Virus record (IMG/VR): IMGVR_UViG_3300010366_000011
Span: 29,038 to 93,037 of that record
Direction: 5' to 3' (one strand)
Source of the DNA: a virus
Length of the DNA stretch: 64,000 nt
Position numbers and translations under genes: made by a program. This document shows, piece by piece, positions 16,530 to 40,550 of the stretch (positions are counted from its first letter, which is position 1; each line of letters opens with the position of its first letter). The notes under the pieces were generated by a model. The model saw only the letters and a list, made by a program, of their open reading frames with translations, ran no database searches and was not told the DNA's origin.

Positions 16530-17066
16530 ATGGACGCCGCATCGAAAGTGTGCACTGGCTGCGGCCAGGTCAAGCCCCTAACCGACTATGGGAAGCGGGC
16601 AGCATCGAGGGACGGCCTTCAATACAAGTGCAAGTCGTGCGTCTCAACCTACGGCGCCAGCTACTTTCAGCAGAACAGGGAACGGAAAGCGGAGTACCAG
16701 CGAGCATGGGTCGAGGCAAACCGAGACCGACACAATGCCAGAACTCGGCAGTGGTACGCGGAACATCCCGGTCGCCAGGTGATTGTCCACCGCAAGTGGC
16801 GCTACGGACTCAGCGAGGAGGAGTACAACCGCCTCTGGGAAGCTCAGGGAGGCACCTGTGCTATCTGCGGAGAACCGGATCCTGCACGTCACACGCTGAG
16901 CGTGGACCACGACCACGCCACAGGCGCGATCCGAGGTCTGCTCTGCACCAAACACAACTCAGCTCTCGGATTGCTCAACGATGACCTTGAACTGGTGGAG
17001 CGGGCAGCGGCCTACCTGCGCCGCTACGCCGCTCCACCAGCAACCATCAACGAAGCGGCGGGCTAA
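16530..17066 (+). CDS. Endonuclease VII-family (His-Me finger) putative free-standing homing endonuclease
   Basis: YGLSEEEY...QGGTCAIC...LSVDHDHATGAIRGLLCTKHNSALG EndoVII motif; N-terminal CTGC...CKSC; antisense to the surrounding operon. Confidence 0.88.
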   Translation: MDAASKVCTGCGQVKPLTDYGKRAASRDGLQYKCKSCVSTYGASYFQQNRERKAEYQRAWVEANRDRHNARTRQWYAEHPGRQVIVHRKWRYGLSEEEYNRLWEAQGGTCAICGEPDPARHTLSVDHDHATGAIRGLLCTKHNSALGLLNDDLELVERAAAYLRRYAAPPATINEAAG

Positions 17067-17194
17067 GTGTTCGCCGCTCCGTAAGTCGGTCTGATTCCTT
17101 GGATACTGCCTGAGAACAATGGGGCATACGCCGTGAGTGCTCCGAAAGCGTACGTGCTCACGTCCCAGGTGAACTGCACTGTCGGCCACGCGAT
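17063..17194 (-). CDS. Major capsid protein, exon 2
   Basis: IAWPTVQFTWDVSTYAFGALTAYAPLFSGSIQGIRPTYGAANT*; in frame with exon 1 after splicing; absent from the ORF track. Confidence 0.85.
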   Translation of the reverse strand: MAWPTVQFTWDVSTYAFGALTAYAPLFSGSIQGIRPTYGAANT

Positions 17195-17486
17195 CTGGAG
17201 GTTTGTTACCGCCAACGGCGGGGCCGGTCATTTCTGCCGGCCTCTCCCGGTCTCCCGGAAGCACGGACTATACCTTCGCCCCAGTGGGGCGCCCCGTGCC
17301 TAGTCTCTGAACCTTCCCGTCGAGCAATCCTCAGGCGGGCTCGGCTGCTGATTGCCCCTACCGGTGCGTTCTTGAACCGTCGCGCTCACCCTTTCGGATC
17401 ACGCTGTGGTCGCACCGTCTACCGGGGTGTCCCAGCAATTCTCGGGGTTTGTCATCCGCTTATTACTAAGCGGCGGAGCCTAGTGG
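17195..17486 (-). mobile_element. Group I self-splicing intron (292 nt, no internal ORF) in the major capsid gene
   Basis: Core motifs P AAUUGCUGGGACACCCC (17440-17424), Q AAUCAGCAGCC (17353-17343), R UUCAGAGACUAG (17311-17300), S AAGGUAUAGUCC (17276-17265). P1 GAGU^C-CACUA-GGCUC has a U.G pair at the 5' splice site. P2 has a GUAA loop and P9 a GAGA loop; terminal G at 17195. Confidence 0.92.
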
Positions 17487-19184
17487 ACTCATGTACTCCT
17501 GAACCGCGGTCCACTCCCATGCCGAGGGGATCTGCGAGTTCGGCACCGGGAGCGCCCACGTGAGGATCATGGCGTTGCCCGGCGGCATGTACGGGTGGAC
17601 CCGGATGTCCACCATGCGCCTCGTGGGAGACGACTGGTTCGTAATCCCCGTCACGATGGCGCCGATCATGGCGTCGTTGGTCTGGCCGGCGGGGAACGTG
17701 ATCCGGTAGCTCGAGCCCGACGGGTTGATCTTGATCAGGTCGCTGAGCTGCGACGAGTCACGTGCCGCCATCCACAGGTCTTCGGGGTCGGCGTATGTCT
17801 TCTCCCAGAGCTGCAGGAAGGCGTTCTGGAACTCGACGCCCGGGTTGCCGCTGGAGAGAGCGGCGTTCAGCCTGGTGTTGTACCCCCCCCGGGTACCATC
17901 GGAGACGATCGACATCATGCCGTCGCAGTCCGAGGCCGAGGCCGACGTGTCGCCACCGGTGGGCACCTTGGCCGTGGCCGTGAGCAGCGACGTCACACCA
18001 CCTGCGCCGATGGTGAAGGTGTTCCAGCCGGTCCTGCCCTGAAGGGCCCTCGTGGCGTCGCCCGGGTCCGCGCCTCCGGCGTTGGCCAGGTTGGCATAGA
18101 CGTTGTATCCCAGTGCTCCCTGGGCGTCGGTGCCGACCTTGACATCAATGACCTGGGTGACGCCGTTGGCGATGTTCACGGTGACGAGGGAAGACGGGAC
18201 CGACTCGCCGAACTCGGCCTGGCTCGTGACCTTGATGTAGACGTTCGTGCCTCCGGAGCCGGATCCGGTGATCCCGCCTTCCCCGGTGGCCGGGGCTCTC
18301 CCGGTACCGGTGACGGTCCCCGGAGCCGCAAGGGCACCCGAGCCACCGGAGTCCGTCGTGCGGCCGGCGAGGATCATGCGCTCGTCGGCGATCATGTGGG
18401 CGGTGAGCAGGACATATTGGCTCAACTGCCTGATGTCCTGGAATCCCTGGCCAGCGAATTGCGCCTCCCACGACACTTGATCCGACCAGGAGAATTGCTT
18501 GTAAGTTACTGTTTGGTCGTCGACAGTGTACGAAATCTTGGGTCCACGGATCAGGTAGAGGTTCTGCGCCGCACCCAAGTTGAAGTTGGTTTGGGTCACC
18601 TCGGTGATCCCGTGCCGTGTCGCCGCTCCGGCGGTGCCGATGCCCGAGCCCGTGAACCCGGTGATCCGCTTGAACCGGCGCACCAGGCCCTGGCCGGGCT
18701 GGCGAGGCAGGCGATTCCGAAGAGGGGAGAAGGTGGGCACGATGTACTTGGCCGGAGCCTCAAGGTCGAATGGGACCAGGCCCGTGCCCAGAGGCGACGT
18801 GGTCGTGATGTCCTTCATGACCTCGGCCTGCGCCGCCCGGTACGCGGTGATCTGCGCCTGCACGGATGCCAGAACCTCGGCACTGGTCCCCTTGAATATC
18901 TGGCCGATCAGGGGGTCCGAGGCGAACTGCGTGTAGATGTCTGCGGCGTTGGTCTTCTCGATCAGGCGTCCCTCGGCGAGGACCCGCCGCGTGCTGGGCT
19001 CGAGGTTCCAGCCGGTCTTCAGCCGGGTCTCTCCCGCCAGTGTGGAGCGGAACGAGTCGTCGATTGCCGTCTTGAACGCCTCGAAGCGTGCTGCCAGGGC
19101 CCGTGGGTCGGGCCTACCCAGAGAGTCGTGCCCGTAGTTCTCTACGAGGTCGCCCCCCAGGTCCTTCTCCAGATTCACTCCCAT
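17487..19184 (-). CDS. Major capsid protein, exon 1 (spliced product ~609 aa)
   Basis: Follows the protease; PFDLEAPAKYIVPTFSPLRNRLPR...; FN3/Ig-like insertion. The unspliced ORF ends at QEYMS-PLGSAA* inside the intron. Confidence 0.9.
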
Positions 19185-19194
19185 GTCTTGTCCT

Positions 19195-21561
19195 TTAGGT
19201 GGTGGCCGGCCTGTCCAGCGCCGCTGCCCTCGCGAGCTCGTCGGTGGCGAGGCCGCGGAAGCCCTGGGCCATCGTCGGATCCGACATCGAGGCCGCCTGG
19301 TCCATGTAGTAGGCGGCCTTCTCGCGGTGGGCGTCGGCCGGGGAGGACTGCGCCGGTCCGTTGGTGGAGATCCCCGCCCGGCGTGGCGTCGGGGGGACTG
19401 GTGCCTTGGCGATACGCTCCACCGTCTCTTCCACCTTTGCCATCCTCCCGCCCAGGGCCTCGATGCCCTCGAGCGGCTTCATGGCCGTGGCAAGTTCCTT
19501 GTGGAGTGTTGCTGCGAAATCGCTGGGGTCGAACCCCTGTTGAGGGGCCTTCACGACGATCGGCGGGTTGAGCGCCTGCGCAAGCCCTTCAGCGAGCTGG
19601 CGCTGAGTCTCCTGTATCCCCGTCAGAACTTTCACCAGGTCCGGCTCGGCGCCGTAGTACATCGGGCGGCCGTTGGTGAGCGGCCCTTCGAGCTCCCCCT
19701 CGGAGATTTCGCCCTGGAGATAGGACCGCAGCCCGGACACAGCCTGTAGGAGGCAGTAGAGCGACCAGTACTCATCGTCGCCATCCGCCAGTTCATCGGC
19801 CTCCTGCTGGATCAGGGTGGCGAGGCCCCGGCACGCCTGCGCGTAGGCGTCGTGGTGATCCTGATCTCCGTCCCAGCCCGTCCCGCCCCCGTCGATACCG
19901 TCGTCCTGCTTGGTCAGGAGCCGGTCGGCGTGAAGCAATCGCCGCGCCAACTTGAGGAGTTCGGAGGCCGCCACCTTCCCGTCATCGGAGACCTCAACGC
20001 CGAACTTCTTCGCCGCGGTCTTAATCCTTGAGAGCGCACTAGCCTTGTCGTCGGCAGAGAGACCCTTGGTCTGGGGAAGCCGGGCAAGAGCGTTGCGGAC
20101 ATGGGCGGCAGCATGGATCGGCAGCATCCGCAGATCACGAGGGACCGTCTTGCCCTGGTCGTCTTTCGTGCCTCCGTCCTTGATGAAGGCGAACGCGGAG
20201 TCTGGGAGATCGTTGATCTCCGCTGTTGAAGCCTCACCCTTGTGGAGTTCGGCTCCGAGCGCTTTCCCCAGCGACGCGCGGCAGATGGCAATGGAGCGTG
20301 ACTTGCGGGCTTTATCGTCGGGGTAGCGGGCCTTCATGTCATCGGAGTCATAGAGGTCCGTGATGCAGCGCTCAAGCTTGGGGTCGTCGGGGACATCCTT
20401 CGTCAGCACGTCCGCGAGTGCCTTCTCCAGGTCGGCTCCGCTCATCTTCTTGTCGCCGTTGCCGAAGGATCGGTGGTGCATGCCGGCGTCGCGCTTCTCC
20501 CCGCACGAGTCGCATTTGCCATCCCCATCGTCGTCCACGAAGGCGTGGGGATCGGACGGATCTTTCTTGGCCTGCTTCTCCACACCCGACATAGCCTTGG
20601 CCACAGCAGCGTCCACCGCTATCTGCAAAGCCTCGAGCGTGAGCGTCACGGGGGCACCGGCGGTCGCCTGGGGTACCTGGGCTGCCTGCTTCTCCATCTT
20701 CGCCACCGTGGCCTGGTGCAGTGCTTCGGGTGCTTGGGGACCGGCGTCGAAGGTGGGTGCCAGCAACGTCTGGGCCGCTGCCTTGGCAGCGGCGTCATCT
20801 CCCCCGTCTTCGGCCCCGCTGTCCTCAACCCGGGGCGGGTCCTTCGGGTCGTGAGCGTGCTCGTGCGGAGTCCCGTCGCCGTGGTCGAAGTGCCCATCGA
20901 GCGGAGAGTGCGGATGCGCGTGAGAGTGGGCCCCGTCCTCGTGGACGTGCATGTGGGTGTGGCCGGCCGAGGTCGAGACCTTGACGAGCTCCCCGTCGGC
21001 CTGACGCAGTAGCTCCTCAGTCCGCACCAGGCCTTTGTCGGCCACAGGCGTAATGCCGGGTGGCAGGGTGATGCTGGGGTCCTTCTCGGCCGACTTCGCC
21101 AACGTGAGCACGCAGGTGGGGTTCGCTGGCCGGTCGACCAGGCTGATCTCGATGATCTGGCCCCCCACGATCCTGCCGTTCGGGGCTCTGGCATCCTTGC
21201 GAATCCGGGGGTTCTTGATCCCCACGCTGTAGCCGGTCAGCACGTCTTCGTCCACTAGGCGCTGCGCGTCGGAGTCGACCACCTTGGACATGAGCCAGTG
21301 CCCGTCGCTTTTCACCTCGTGCTCGGTACCCTTGCCAACCGGACGGTGCATGTCATGGGAGAGCCGAACATTAGCTCCCGAGTCGAACCACTCCGGGACC
21401 GCTCCGGCGAGCCAGTCGGGGTCAAGGATCTGGGCATCCAAGTCCAGGTCGTCGCCCGCCGCCTTGCCATAGACGAGCAGATTGCCAGCGTCGTCCCTGC
21501 GCTTGTCGAGGACGTCCCCGAAGTAGACGTACGTGAGATCCGGCGCGGAGCGAGCGGGCAT
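19195..21561 (-). CDS. Capsid maturation protease / scaffold fusion
   Basis: HK97-type protease motifs (DLDLDAQI, NVRLSH, GYSVG, EISLVDRPANP) plus a long multi-domain C-terminus. Confidence 0.85.
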   Translation of the reverse strand: MPARSAPDLTYVYFGDVLDKRRDDAGNLLVYGKAAGDDLDLDAQILDPDWLAGAVPEWFDSGANVRLSHDMHRPVGKGTEHEVKSDGHWLMSKVVDSDAQRLVDEDVLTGYSVGIKNPRIRKDARAPNGRIVGGQIIEISLVDRPANPTCVLTLAKSAEKDPSITLPPGITPVADKGLVRTEELLRQADGELVKVSTSAGHTHMHVHEDGAHSHAHPHSPLDGHFDHGDGTPHEHAHDPKDPPRVEDSGAEDGGDDAAAKAAAQTLLAPTFDAGPQAPEALHQATVAKMEKQAAQVPQATAGAPVTLTLEALQIAVDAAVAKAMSGVEKQAKKDPSDPHAFVDDDGDGKCDSCGEKRDAGMHHRSFGNGDKKMSGADLEKALADVLTKDVPDDPKLERCITDLYDSDDMKARYPDDKARKSRSIAICRASLGKALGAELHKGEASTAEINDLPDSAFAFIKDGGTKDDQGKTVPRDLRMLPIHAAAHVRNALARLPQTKGLSADDKASALSRIKTAAKKFGVEVSDDGKVAASELLKLARRLLHADRLLTKQDDGIDGGGTGWDGDQDHHDAYAQACRGLATLIQQEADELADGDDEYWSLYCLLQAVSGLRSYLQGEISEGELEGPLTNGRPMYYGAEPDLVKVLTGIQETQRQLAEGLAQALNPPIVVKAPQQGFDPSDFAATLHKELATAMKPLEGIEALGGRMAKVEETVERIAKAPVPPTPRRAGISTNGPAQSSPADAHREKAAYYMDQAASMSDPTMAQGFRGLATDELARAAALDRPATT

Positions 21562-40418: not shown

Positions 40419-40550
40419 GCCGGATGAGTAGTTGGCATCGGGTTTTGGCGCTCTGGCCGCTGAGCTACAGGGTGCCCCTTGAGGACCCTGGCAGGATTTG
40501 AACCTGCGACCTCCCCATCCAGAGTGGTAACCGACGTCATCCGACCCGGC
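40419..40550 (-). ncRNA. yrlA: YrlA-type Y RNA (tRNA-mimic)
   Basis: Terminal stem GCCGGGUCGGAUGAC.../...ACUCAUCCGGC. It encloses T-arm GCAGG-UUCAAAU-CCUGC, a closed acceptor-like hairpin CAGGGU...ACCCUG, then D-arm UAGCUCAGCGGCCAGAGC (permuted order). Directly upstream of rsr. Confidence 0.88.

What the first reader, a model, noticed from the sequence alone, without database searches (positions are those of the whole stretch)
17063..19184. Major capsid gene split by an ORF-less group I intron; the C-terminal 43 aa are hidden
Seen: canonical P/Q/R/S elements, a P1 with U.G at 17487 and a terminal G at 17195. Splicing gives QEYMS|IAWPTVQFTWDVSTY...; without it the capsid protein is truncated. 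Phage group I introns are best known from DNA-metabolism genes, so one in the most abundant virion gene makes splicing essential. An alternative in-frame register exists (GGAGU| ... |ACCUCCAG, giving QEYLQIAWP) but would need a terminal A instead of G.
Basis: partly seen in the sequence, partly recalled or inferred. Interest (0 to 1): 0.8.

Follow-up and report, generated by a model that had tools for sequence, protein, structure and literature searches.

The report
Self-splicing intron in phage capsid gene
The major capsid gene of this uncultured high-GC phage is interrupted by a real 292-base self-splicing group I intron, so gene callers lose the last 43 residues; introns in phage capsid genes have been described before.

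Summary
Rfam's group I intron model hits window 17244-17504 (-) at 58.8 bits (cut-off 50, E 2.4e-12). Removing 17195-17486 joins ...QEYMS to IAWPTVQF... This is exactly how uninterrupted homologues read (P0002, 78% identical: ...QDYMSIAWPTMQF...). The two exons match consecutive positions of one PHROG profile (3-454, then 456-489). A modelled homologue has the HK97 capsid fold. Seven invariant residues of the family lie in exon 2, so splicing is needed for a complete capsid protein.

The intron belongs to a covarying family: 48 of 72 predicted pairs show compensatory changes. I found this family in 31 IMG/VR contigs, mostly inside major capsid genes of several sequence families, with up to five copies in one locus (L059). 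Intron insertions cluster near this site. One relative carries an intron 4 nt upstream and another 7 nt downstream.

A convergent Endonuclease VII-type gene abuts the capsid stop. It recurs beside the only other close intron-bearing allele (L030). It lies inside a related intron in L042. It is not found downstream of the capsid gene in any of about 114 intron-less relatives. This fits collaborative homing, which is untested here.

Capsid-gene introns are already documented (LittleE, crAss-like phages). Verdict: a new member of a known kind, of modest interest.

The parts
17487..19184 (-). Capsid exon 1 (566 codons, ATG 19184-19182 to AGU 17489-17487)
   Evidence: Matches phrog_13692 positions 3-454, E 6.9e-81. 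78% identical to uninterrupted P0002.
17195..17486 (-). ORF-less group I intron, 292 nt, from C17486 to the terminal G17195
   Evidence: RF00028 at 58.8 bits, E 2.4e-12. Homologous introns in 24 aligned copies show 48 of 72 pairs with compensatory changes. Fold z-score -3.4.
17476..17490 (-). P1: exon GAGU + intron C (17490-17486), loop CACUA, guide strand GGCUC (17480-17476); U17487.G17479 marks the 5' splice site
   Evidence: Read directly from the sequence. The helix is present in the MFE and centroid folds.
17456..17473 (-). P2 hairpin CCGCUUA-GUAA-UAAGCGG; it contains the in-frame stop UAG at 17468-17466, six codons into the intron
   Evidence: All seven P2 pairs covary across the family (columns 52-70).
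17244..17447 (-). Catalytic core. P3 17447-17443/17296-17292; P4 17438-17432/17351-17345; P5 plus extension with a GAAA loop, about 17427-17356; P6 17339-17316; P7 17305-17301/17270-17266; P8 17291-17277; P9 17261-17244 (GAGA loop)
   Evidence: Rfam alignment and the RNAalifold consensus with pair counts. P7 was read by eye, because it is a pseudoknot and RNAalifold cannot draw it.
17195..17242 (-). Peripheral hairpins P9.1 (17242-17222) and P9.2 (17221-17209), then the tail UAACAAACCUCCAG ending in G17195
   Evidence: P9.1 covaries. The L030 intron carries compensatory versions of both hairpins.
17063..17194 (-). Capsid exon 2: 43 codons (IAWPTVQF...GAANT) plus TAG
   Evidence: Matches phrog_13692 positions 456-489, E 1.5e-5. 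Aligns with the C-termini of all uninterrupted homologues. Seven invariant family residues lie in the equivalent segment of P0002: W556, P557, S566, Y568, A577, P578, G586.
16530..17066 (+). Convergent free-standing Endonuclease VII-type gene (178 aa). N-terminal CxxC...CxxC ribbon, C-terminal nuclease motif. Its TAA (17064-17066) overlaps the capsid TAG. Candidate homing endonuclease.
   Evidence: PF02945 E 1.4e-22, residues 88-164. A homologue sits in the same convergent place in L030. An Endo VII ORF lies inside a related intron in L042.
19195..21561 (-). Upstream head-module gene (788 aa): prohead protease/scaffold-like N-terminus plus DUF6582 (context only)
   Evidence: Weak matches to phrog_80, phrog_617 and phrog_21715; DUF6582. 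Its N-terminal domain is conserved upstream of the capsid gene in relatives.

Best explanation
Window 17195-17486 (-) is an ORF-less group I self-splicing intron inside the HK97-fold major capsid gene of an uncultured high-GC tailed phage (an IMG/VR record of 93 kb). The late transcript folds into the ribozyme. P1 presents U17487.G17479. A free guanosine attacks after U17487, and the released exon end then attacks after the terminal G17195. This joins AGU to AUC and gives a 609-aa capsid protein (...QEYMS-IAWPTVQF...). An in-frame UAG six codons into the intron stops ribosomes before they reach the ribozyme core. Shown here: the intron's identity, its boundaries, colinearity with intron-less homologues, and conservation of exon 2. 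Inferred, not shown: that splicing actually occurs and is efficient. Also inferred: the intron spreads or persists as a mobile element. It is absent from the closest relatives found. It belongs to an intron family that occupies capsid genes in many environmental phage contigs. The abutting Endonuclease VII-type gene is its likely trans-acting homing endonuclease.
For: RF00028 full-length hit at 58.8 bits against a cut-off of 50, E 2.4e-12. It is the only such hit in the 93-kb record. Exon 1 matches phrog_13692 positions 3-454 and exon 2 matches 456-489. Uninterrupted homologues read straight through the junction: P0002 (78%), P0004, and the C-terminal fragments P0005 (84%) and P0006 (78%). 78 of the 80 best IMG/VR relatives do the same. 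The chosen junction is the best of 93 in-frame U...G alternatives. In the AlphaFold model of P0002 (pLDDT 75.8), the exon-2 equivalent forms two confident terminal strands. Foldseek gives probability 1.00 to the SPO1, SU10, HK97 and other capsids. Seven invariant residues lie in exon 2. In 24 homologous introns, 48 of 72 pairs keep pairing through double changes. For the mobility inference: there is no intron in about 114 relatives. A homologous intron with an Endo VII gene in the same place occurs in L030. An Endo VII ORF lies inside a related intron in L042.
Against: There is no transcript or protein data, so splicing itself is untested. P1 has only 4 exon base pairs plus 1 intron pair. I found no convincing P10 pairing with the 3' exon. 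The subgroup was not assigned. For mobility: the window's nuclease has CxxHN where its relatives have CxxCN. PMC6083498 reports that the C61S mutant of T4 Endo VII is inactive; by my reading of the CxxCN motif, the His sits at the equivalent position. The record has a second Endo VII paralogue far from any intron. Most intron-bearing contigs of the family have no Endo VII homologue nearby.
Confidence: 0.93

Rival explanations
1. The Endonuclease VII-type gene and the ORF-less intron form a collaborative-homing pair, like S-PM2 F-CphI with the psbA intron. The nuclease cuts intron-less capsid alleles of co-infecting relatives at or near ...TACATGAGT^ATCGCGTGG.... The intron disrupts that site in its own genome. 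Repair copies the intron, and probably the nuclease gene 128 nt away, into the cut genome. This extends the main reading rather than replacing it.
For: PF02945 E 1.4e-22, with the motif at the C-terminus. PMC6083498 reports that layout for F-CphI and its 'endonuclease clade'. The two stop codons overlap, and the nuclease gene ends 128 nt from the insertion site. The same convergent arrangement occurs in L030, the only other close intron-bearing allele. No Endo VII lies downstream of the capsid gene in 36 intron-less metagenome loci or 80 IMG/VR loci; the only hit, L085, is 2 kb upstream. A homologous Endo VII ORF lies inside a related capsid intron in L042, and another lies next to a related intron in a major tail gene in L053/L054.
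Against: The window and L030 are related, so the co-occurrence may reflect a single event. The DNA of the closest intron-less alleles (P0002, P0005, P0006) could not be fetched, so their downstream neighbours are unknown. The CxxHN substitution may impair the enzyme. A second paralogue in the record suggests that such nucleases are scattered free-standing elements. No cleavage data exist.
Confidence: 0.45
2. The intron is a decayed, non-splicing remnant. In that case the capsid gene is a pseudogene in a defective or misassembled contig, or the truncated 572-aa product is the functional protein.
For: No expression data. P1 is short and P10 is weak. The record is a metagenome assembly estimated 89% complete.
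Against: All core elements score above Rfam's cut-off, and the helices match a covarying family. Exon 2 is intact, in frame, and 38 of 43 residues identical to P0002's C-terminus (alignment). It carries seven invariant family residues. No homologue ends at the junction except P0007, which itself looks intron-interrupted. An independent sample (L030) has the same kind of interruption.
Confidence: 0.04
3. Splicing uses another register, for example the reader's GGAGU|...|ACCUCCA alternative, and gives a slightly different junction peptide.
For: GGAG (17499-17496) can pair with CUCC (17200-17197) in the MFE fold.
Against: That register needs a terminal A rather than G and gives QEYLQIAWP. The close homologues P0002 and P0004 read YMSIAWP (P0003: YMAVAWP), and the PHROG profile is colinear with the S|I junction.
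Confidence: 0.02

Closest known systems
Mycobacteriophage LittleE capsid-gene intron and BAKA tail-gene intron (Cluster J; Pope et al. 2013, PMC3706429)
   Same: An intron that the authors judged most likely group I, inside the major capsid gene of a phage of a high-GC Gram-positive host, with U at the exon end and G at the intron end. Splicing was shown by RT-PCR and N-terminal sequencing. BAKA's related intron is ORF-less and 265 bp, a size similar to this one. Those genomes also carry many free-standing HNH endonucleases.
   Different: LittleE's capsid intron is about 820 bp and encodes a LAGLIDADG-like ORF. It lies near the N-terminus of the mature protein, whereas this one lies 43 codons from the C-terminus. 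blastn found no DNA similarity between this intron and any phage GenBank record. The capsid sequence family is different.
S-PM2 psbA intron with free-standing F-CphI (collaborative homing; Zeng et al. 2009, as described in PMC6083498 and PMC3984707)
   Same: [quoted passage not shown]
   Different: The host gene there is psbA in a T4-like cyanophage. Cleavage specificity was shown there and is not shown here. The window's enzyme has CxxHN in place of CxxCN.
Multi-intron major capsid genes of crAss-like (Delta/Zeta) phages, and intron-rich Jug phages (PMC7886860, PMC12880540)
   Same: Group I introns interrupt core virion genes, including the MCP gene, in metagenome-assembled phages. [quoted passage not shown] Gene callers truncate such genes.
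   Different: Those are Bacteroidota phages with unrelated capsid sequences. This window has a single intron, but its distant relatives in IMG/VR (for example L059) carry up to five.
Classical phage group I introns (T4 td, nrdB and nrdD; SPO1 DNA polymerase; Twort)
   Same: The same ribozyme class and the same two-step guanosine-initiated mechanism. An in-frame stop occurs early in the intron.
   Different: Those sit in DNA-metabolism genes. From my own knowledge, the T4 td type (subgroup IA2) has extra helices P7.1/P7.2. Here P7 is followed directly by P3', and there are P5-extension and P9.1/P9.2 hairpins. The subgroup was not assigned with a tool.

Membership tests
Group I catalytic intron (Rfam RF00028) | Covariance-model score at or above the curated gathering score over the whole model | tested here: met
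   58.8 bits against 50, model positions 1-253 of 253, E 2.4e-12. The same result came from the whole-record search.
Group I catalytic intron (Rfam RF00028) | Conserved core helices P3-P9 with the P, Q, R and S sequence blocks | tested here: met
   Rfam alignment. P3, P4, P5, P6, P8 and P9 were recovered by RNAalifold on 24 homologues. P7 was read by eye.
Group I catalytic intron (Rfam RF00028) | 5' exon ends in U, paired with G of the internal guide sequence in P1 | tested here: met
   GAGU|C (17490-17486) pairs with GGCUC (17480-17476), giving U17487.G17479.
Group I catalytic intron (Rfam RF00028) | Intron ends in G (omega-G) | tested here: met
   G17195. It is the only U...G junction that restores the homologues' sequence.
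Group I catalytic intron (Rfam RF00028) | Base pairs supported by compensatory changes in relatives | tested here: met
   48 of 72 predicted pairs have at least one double change that keeps the pair.
Group I catalytic intron (Rfam RF00028) | P10 pairing between the guide sequence and the 3' exon | tested here: inconclusive
   By inspection, there is no convincing complement to AUCGCG next to the P1 guide strand.
Group I catalytic intron (Rfam RF00028) | Guanosine-dependent self-splicing with exon ligation | not testable with these tools
   This needs in vitro transcription with GTP, or RT-PCR from infected cells.
HK97-fold major capsid protein | HK97 fold | tested here: met
   AlphaFold2 model of the uninterrupted homologue P0002 (pLDDT 75.8, pTM 0.68). 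Foldseek probability 1.00 and E down to 2e-11 against the SPO1, Pa223, SU10 and HK97 capsids.
HK97-fold major capsid protein | Position in a head-morphogenesis module | tested here: met
   It lies directly downstream of a protease/scaffold-like gene, and that pairing is conserved in relatives. The best tblastn hit in the phage collection is annotated 'major head protein'.
HK97-fold major capsid protein | Presence as the major virion protein | not testable with these tools
   This needs virion proteomics.
Collaborative homing pair (ORF-less intron + free-standing DHHRN/Endo VII-motif endonuclease, F-CphI type) | Endo VII catalytic motif (CX2-4C, DHDH, R, CX2C, N) | tested here: inconclusive
   PF02945 E 1.4e-22. 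CAIC, DHDH, R and N are present, but the last Cys is His (CTKHN), whereas L030, L042, L054 and the paralogue have CxxCN.
Collaborative homing pair (ORF-less intron + free-standing DHHRN/Endo VII-motif endonuclease, F-CphI type) | Nuclease motif at the C-terminus, as in the endonuclease clade rather than the resolvase clade | tested here: met
   The motif spans residues 88-164 of 178. The clade description comes from PMC6083498. No tree was built here.
Collaborative homing pair (ORF-less intron + free-standing DHHRN/Endo VII-motif endonuclease, F-CphI type) | Free-standing nuclease gene adjacent to an intron that lacks its own endonuclease | tested here: met
   The stop codons overlap and the gene ends 128 nt from the insertion site. 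The same layout occurs in L030.
Collaborative homing pair (ORF-less intron + free-standing DHHRN/Endo VII-motif endonuclease, F-CphI type) | The nuclease cuts the intron-less allele at the insertion site, and the intron protects the host genome | not testable with these tools
   This needs a cleavage assay on intron-less and intron-containing targets.

The most novel reading that the evidence does not exclude
The intron and its abutting Endo VII-type nuclease act together as a weapon aimed at the capsid gene. The nuclease would cut the conserved ...VQ(E/D)YMSIAWP... coding site in co-infecting intron-less relatives. This would spread the pair and could cripple the competitor's late gene expression. 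The clustering of independent intron insertions within about 11 nt of this site, and the family's strong preference for major capsid genes of at least four unrelated sequence families, would then mark capsid genes as a main arena of intron and endonuclease conflict among environmental phages.
Probability: 0.3. Interest if true: 0.6.

Novelty: new member of a known kind. Interest (0 to 1): 0.35.

Why it matters
In practice, gene callers truncate this capsid protein (572 aa with a false tail instead of 609 aa) and hide a conserved C-terminus. The same error affects many IMG/VR contigs, where related capsid genes are cut into up to six pieces. That damages capsid-based phylogeny, clustering and structure prediction. 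Biologically, the most abundant virion protein depends on efficient ribozyme splicing. The finding also adds an uncultured high-GC phage example to the few documented capsid-gene introns. The intron family found here (capsid and tail genes; Endo VII, DUF559 or HNH endonucleases inside or beside the introns) is a ready data set for studying how ORF-less introns and free-standing endonucleases converge on the same conserved site.

Tried and rejected
The contigs of the closest intron-less alleles (P0002, P0005, P0006) and of the probably intron-bearing P0007 could therefore not be fetched, so I could neither compare the homing-site DNA nor check for a neighbouring nuclease in those alleles.

(2) blastn of the intron against 50,697 phage GenBank records found no match.

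(3) A single-protein scan of IMG/VR with the capsid found nothing. An alignment-based scan was needed.

(4) The five genome-contig hits to the 19-mer share only that short stretch and are not homologous introns.

(5) Pfam has no family for the capsid protein, and phrog_13692 is unannotated. The capsid assignment therefore rests on fold, context and one annotated distant hit.

(6) L030 is a palindromic, error-rich long-read contig whose two arms are 96% identical. Its exact splice register could not be settled: the U...G rule gives a -1 frameshift, and an in-frame join would need a terminal A or an uncounted G. Only the 7-nt offset of its insertion site is used here.

(7) L016 has the same length as P0004's contig but is a different, 39%-identical gene.

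(8) The intron subgroup was not assigned, because no subgroup-specific models are on hand.

(9) A low-threshold Rfam scan found no further group I intron in the window.
Full report
**What is there**

On the minus strand, an ATG at 19184 opens a 572-codon ORF that ends at a UAG at 17468-17466. Rfam's group I intron model RF00028 matches 17244-17504 (-) over its full length at 58.8 bits (gathering score 50, E 2.4e-12), and the classical P, Q, R and S blocks align. It is the only group I hit in the window, even at a permissive threshold. It is also the only one in the whole 93,037-bp IMG/VR virus record, of which the window covers bases 29038-93037.

**Boundaries**

The 5' exon ends ...CAG GAG UAC AUG AGU at U17487. 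GAGU|C (17490-17486) pairs with GGCUC (17480-17476) across a CACUA loop, which gives the U.G wobble that defines a group I 5' splice site. The intron ends ...GGUAACAAACCUCCAG at G17195. Exon 2 runs from AUC at 17194 through 43 codons to UAG at 17065-17063.

Removing 17195-17486 (292 nt) gives a 609-aa protein reading ...AVQEYMS-IAWPTVQFTWDVSTY.... Three independent lines fix this register:

- Exon 1 matches phrog_13692 at profile positions 3-454, and the 43-aa exon 2 matches the same profile at 456-489.
- Uninterrupted homologues read straight through the junction. P0002 (78% identical) has ...AVQDYMSIAWPTMQFTWDVSTY.... So do P0003, P0004 and the C-terminal fragments P0005 (84%) and P0006.
- Of 93 in-frame 'exon ends in U, intron ends in G' combinations within +/-40 nt, this one matches the homologue best, at 19 of 22 residues against 14 for the next best.

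**Anatomy of the intron**

- P2 is CCGCUUA-GUAA-UAAGCGG (17473-17456). It holds the in-frame stop that ends the mis-called ORF six codons into the intron.
- The core follows: P3 17447-17443/17296-17292, P4 17438-17432/17351-17345, an extended P5 with a GAAA loop, P6 17339-17316, P7 17305-17301/17270-17266, P8 17291-17277 and P9 17261-17244 with a GAGA loop.
- Two extra hairpins come next, P9.1 (17242-17222) and P9.2 (17221-17209), and then a short tail.
- P7 runs directly into P3', so there is no P7.1/P7.2 insertion.
- I saw no convincing P10.
- The subgroup was not assigned.
- The intron is 292 nt, which I judge too short to encode an endonuclease.

**It is a major capsid gene, and exon 2 matters**

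Pfam has no family for the protein, and the PHROG family is unannotated. An AlphaFold2 model of the uninterrupted homologue P0002, built with 54 aligned relatives, has pLDDT 75.8 and pTM 0.68. It matches HK97-fold capsid proteins (SPO1, Pa223, SU10, HK97 itself) with Foldseek probability 1.00.

The gene follows a 788-aa protease/scaffold-like gene, and that pairing is conserved in relatives. The best tblastn hit in the phage collection is annotated as a major head protein.

In the model, the exon-2 equivalent (P0002 residues 554-596) forms two confident terminal strands. It carries seven of the family's invariant residues: W556, P557, S566, Y568, A577, P578 and G586. No homologue ends at the junction. 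A complete capsid protein therefore requires splicing. That inference is strong, but splicing itself was not observed.

**The intron is a member of a widespread, covarying family**

A 19-mer from the P5'/P4' strands (GGGGCAATCAGCAGCCGAG) occurs in 31 IMG/VR contigs. blastn shows 70-80% identity to the window's intron over about 230-280 nt, often in several copies per contig. Rfam's gathering score is reached at 27 places in these loci.

An alignment of 24 copies gives a consensus structure of 72 pairs, and 48 of these keep pairing through changes on both sides. This is good evidence for a functional RNA rather than a chance match.

**Where these introns sit**

I built a family HMM from uninterrupted capsid proteins. 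It shows that many of these contigs carry distant capsid homologues (27-32% identical) cut into pieces at seven or more regions. These are L059, L057/L062, L061, L058, L041/L068, L039/43/44, L047, L050 and L046.

L059 has five intron copies in 3 kb, and three of them lie within the last ~45 codons. The window's junction lies between HMM positions 530 and 531. In L057 and L059, a more divergent intron sits 4 nt upstream (CU|C...G|CAGUAU, restoring QDYLSISWP as in the uninterrupted L061).

Other members interrupt other late genes:

- major capsid genes of other sequence families: phrog_10 in L048, L066 and L067, and PF05065 in L049;
- in L042, flanking exons that read like a T7-type capsid protein by eye, a call not confirmed with a tool;
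- a major tail protein gene in L054.

Among the copies I examined, this intron family was found mostly in highly expressed late structural genes.

**Sporadic distribution among close relatives**

None of the 80 best IMG/VR relatives (40-48% identity) has the intron. 78 of them span the junction in one alignment, and the other two are cut by contig ends. Of 37 metagenome loci, only L030 has an intron.

L030's intron is clearly homologous in its core. Its P2, P9.1 and P9.2 hairpins are compensatory variants, and it is inserted 7 nt further downstream (ATCGCGT|intron). L030 is a noisy palindromic long-read contig, so its exact register is unresolved.

P0007 (66% identical) ends ...QDYMS followed by unrelated residues, so it probably has an intron at or next to the same site.

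So there are at least three distinct insertion points within about 11 nt of this conserved coding site. This is the pattern expected for mobile introns and endonucleases that target conserved sequence.

**The neighbouring nuclease**

ORF 16530-17066 (+) is convergent with the capsid gene, and its TAA overlaps the capsid TAG. It has an N-terminal CxxC...CxxC ribbon and a C-terminal Endonuclease VII motif (PF02945, E 1.4e-22, residues 88-164).

PMC6083498 describes this layout for F-CphI. F-CphI is the free-standing Endo VII-motif homing endonuclease next to the ORF-less psbA intron of cyanophage S-PM2. It is the founding case of 'collaborative homing'.

Evidence gathered here in favour of a link:

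- A homologue sits in the same convergent position in L030.
- No Endo VII homologue lies downstream of the capsid gene in the roughly 114 intron-less relatives. The only hit, L085, is 2 kb upstream.
- An Endo VII ORF lies inside a related intron in L042.
- Another lies about 360 nt from a related intron in L053/L054.

Cautions:

- The window and L030 may represent a single evolutionary event.
- The window's enzyme has CTKHN where its relatives have CxxCN.
- The record has a second paralogue at bases 632-1222, far from any intron.
- Other members of the intron family are associated with DUF559 or HNH endonucleases instead.

I put the collaborative-homing reading at about 0.45. My evidence for it is independent of that note.

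**Comparison with what is known**

Group I introns in phage capsid genes are documented. Pope et al. 2013 (PMC3706429) showed splicing of an intron in the LittleE major capsid gene, which they judged most likely group I, and described an ORF-less 265-bp intron in a BAKA tail gene. They also cite a capsid-gene intron in lactococcal phage Tuc2009. Yutin et al. 2021 (PMC7886860) describe crAss-like MCP genes split into five fragments by group I introns. Jug phages average 18.5 group I introns per genome (PMC12880540).

This finding is therefore a new member of a known kind. It is well supported and useful for annotation. Its modest added interest lies in the capsid-directed intron family and the candidate nuclease partner.

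**Verdict**

| Item | Result |
|---|---|
| Observation | Confirmed |
| Confidence in the intron and its junction | 0.93 |
| Novelty | New member of a known kind |
| Interest | 0.35 |

Noticed in passing
L059:2184-5300 (also L057/L062, L061, L058, L041/L068, L039/L043/L044, L047, L050, L046): In IMG/VR contigs, distant homologues of this capsid gene are cut into several exons by introns of the same family. L059 has five intron copies in about 3 kb, with three inside the last ~45 codons. Insertion points fall in seven or more regions of the protein.
   Followed up: partly
L042:746-1387; L057:2155-3105; L061:2038-3039; L039:3457-4299; L050:4684-5430: The larger insertions in these related capsid genes encode endonucleases of different families: Endo VII (L042, inside a Rfam-scored intron), DUF559/Vsr-like PD-(D/E)xK with HTH domains (L057, L061, L039) and HNH (L050).
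   Followed up: partly
L030 (whole locus, 5097 nt): This JGI contig is its own reverse complement at 96% identity with indels. That is what an unsplit hairpin long read looks like. Its many frameshifts make base-level conclusions unsafe.
   Followed up: yes
L030:1322-1664 compared with window 17195-17486: The same intron lineage and the same neighbouring nuclease occur in both, but the insertion point is 7 nt apart and the P1 guide sequences differ. How one lineage moved 7 nt is unexplained. Reverse splicing, illegitimate repair or contig noise are possible causes.
   Followed up: partly
G000:C1:632-1222 (= L076:632-1222, outside the window): A second Endo VII-type gene (196 aa) has the same zinc-ribbon plus C-terminal nuclease layout and an intact CxxCN. 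No intron lies nearby.
   Followed up: partly
L076:1-310 (start of the virus record, outside the window): The record begins with a tandem repeat whose unit encodes an eight-residue peptide (PWRSPMPA or similar in one frame). It may be a terminal or assembly-end repeat.
   Followed up: no
window 40432-40537 (-): There is a sub-threshold Rfam match to YrlA (Y RNA-like): 34.1 bits against a cut-off of 69, E 0.0013. Earlier scan notes place a Ro60 (rsr) gene next to it.
   Followed up: no
window 19195-21561 (-): The 788-aa protein upstream of the capsid gene combines a protease/scaffold-like N-terminus, a His-rich stretch (HTHMHVHEDGAHSHAHPHSPLDGHFDHGDGTPHEHAHD) and DUF6582. It is an unusual head-assembly fusion.
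   Followed up: no
window 17063-17066: The stop codons of the convergent capsid gene (TAG, minus strand) and nuclease gene (TAA, plus strand) overlap in the four bases CTAA, so the two transcripts would be antisense at their 3' ends.
   Followed up: no
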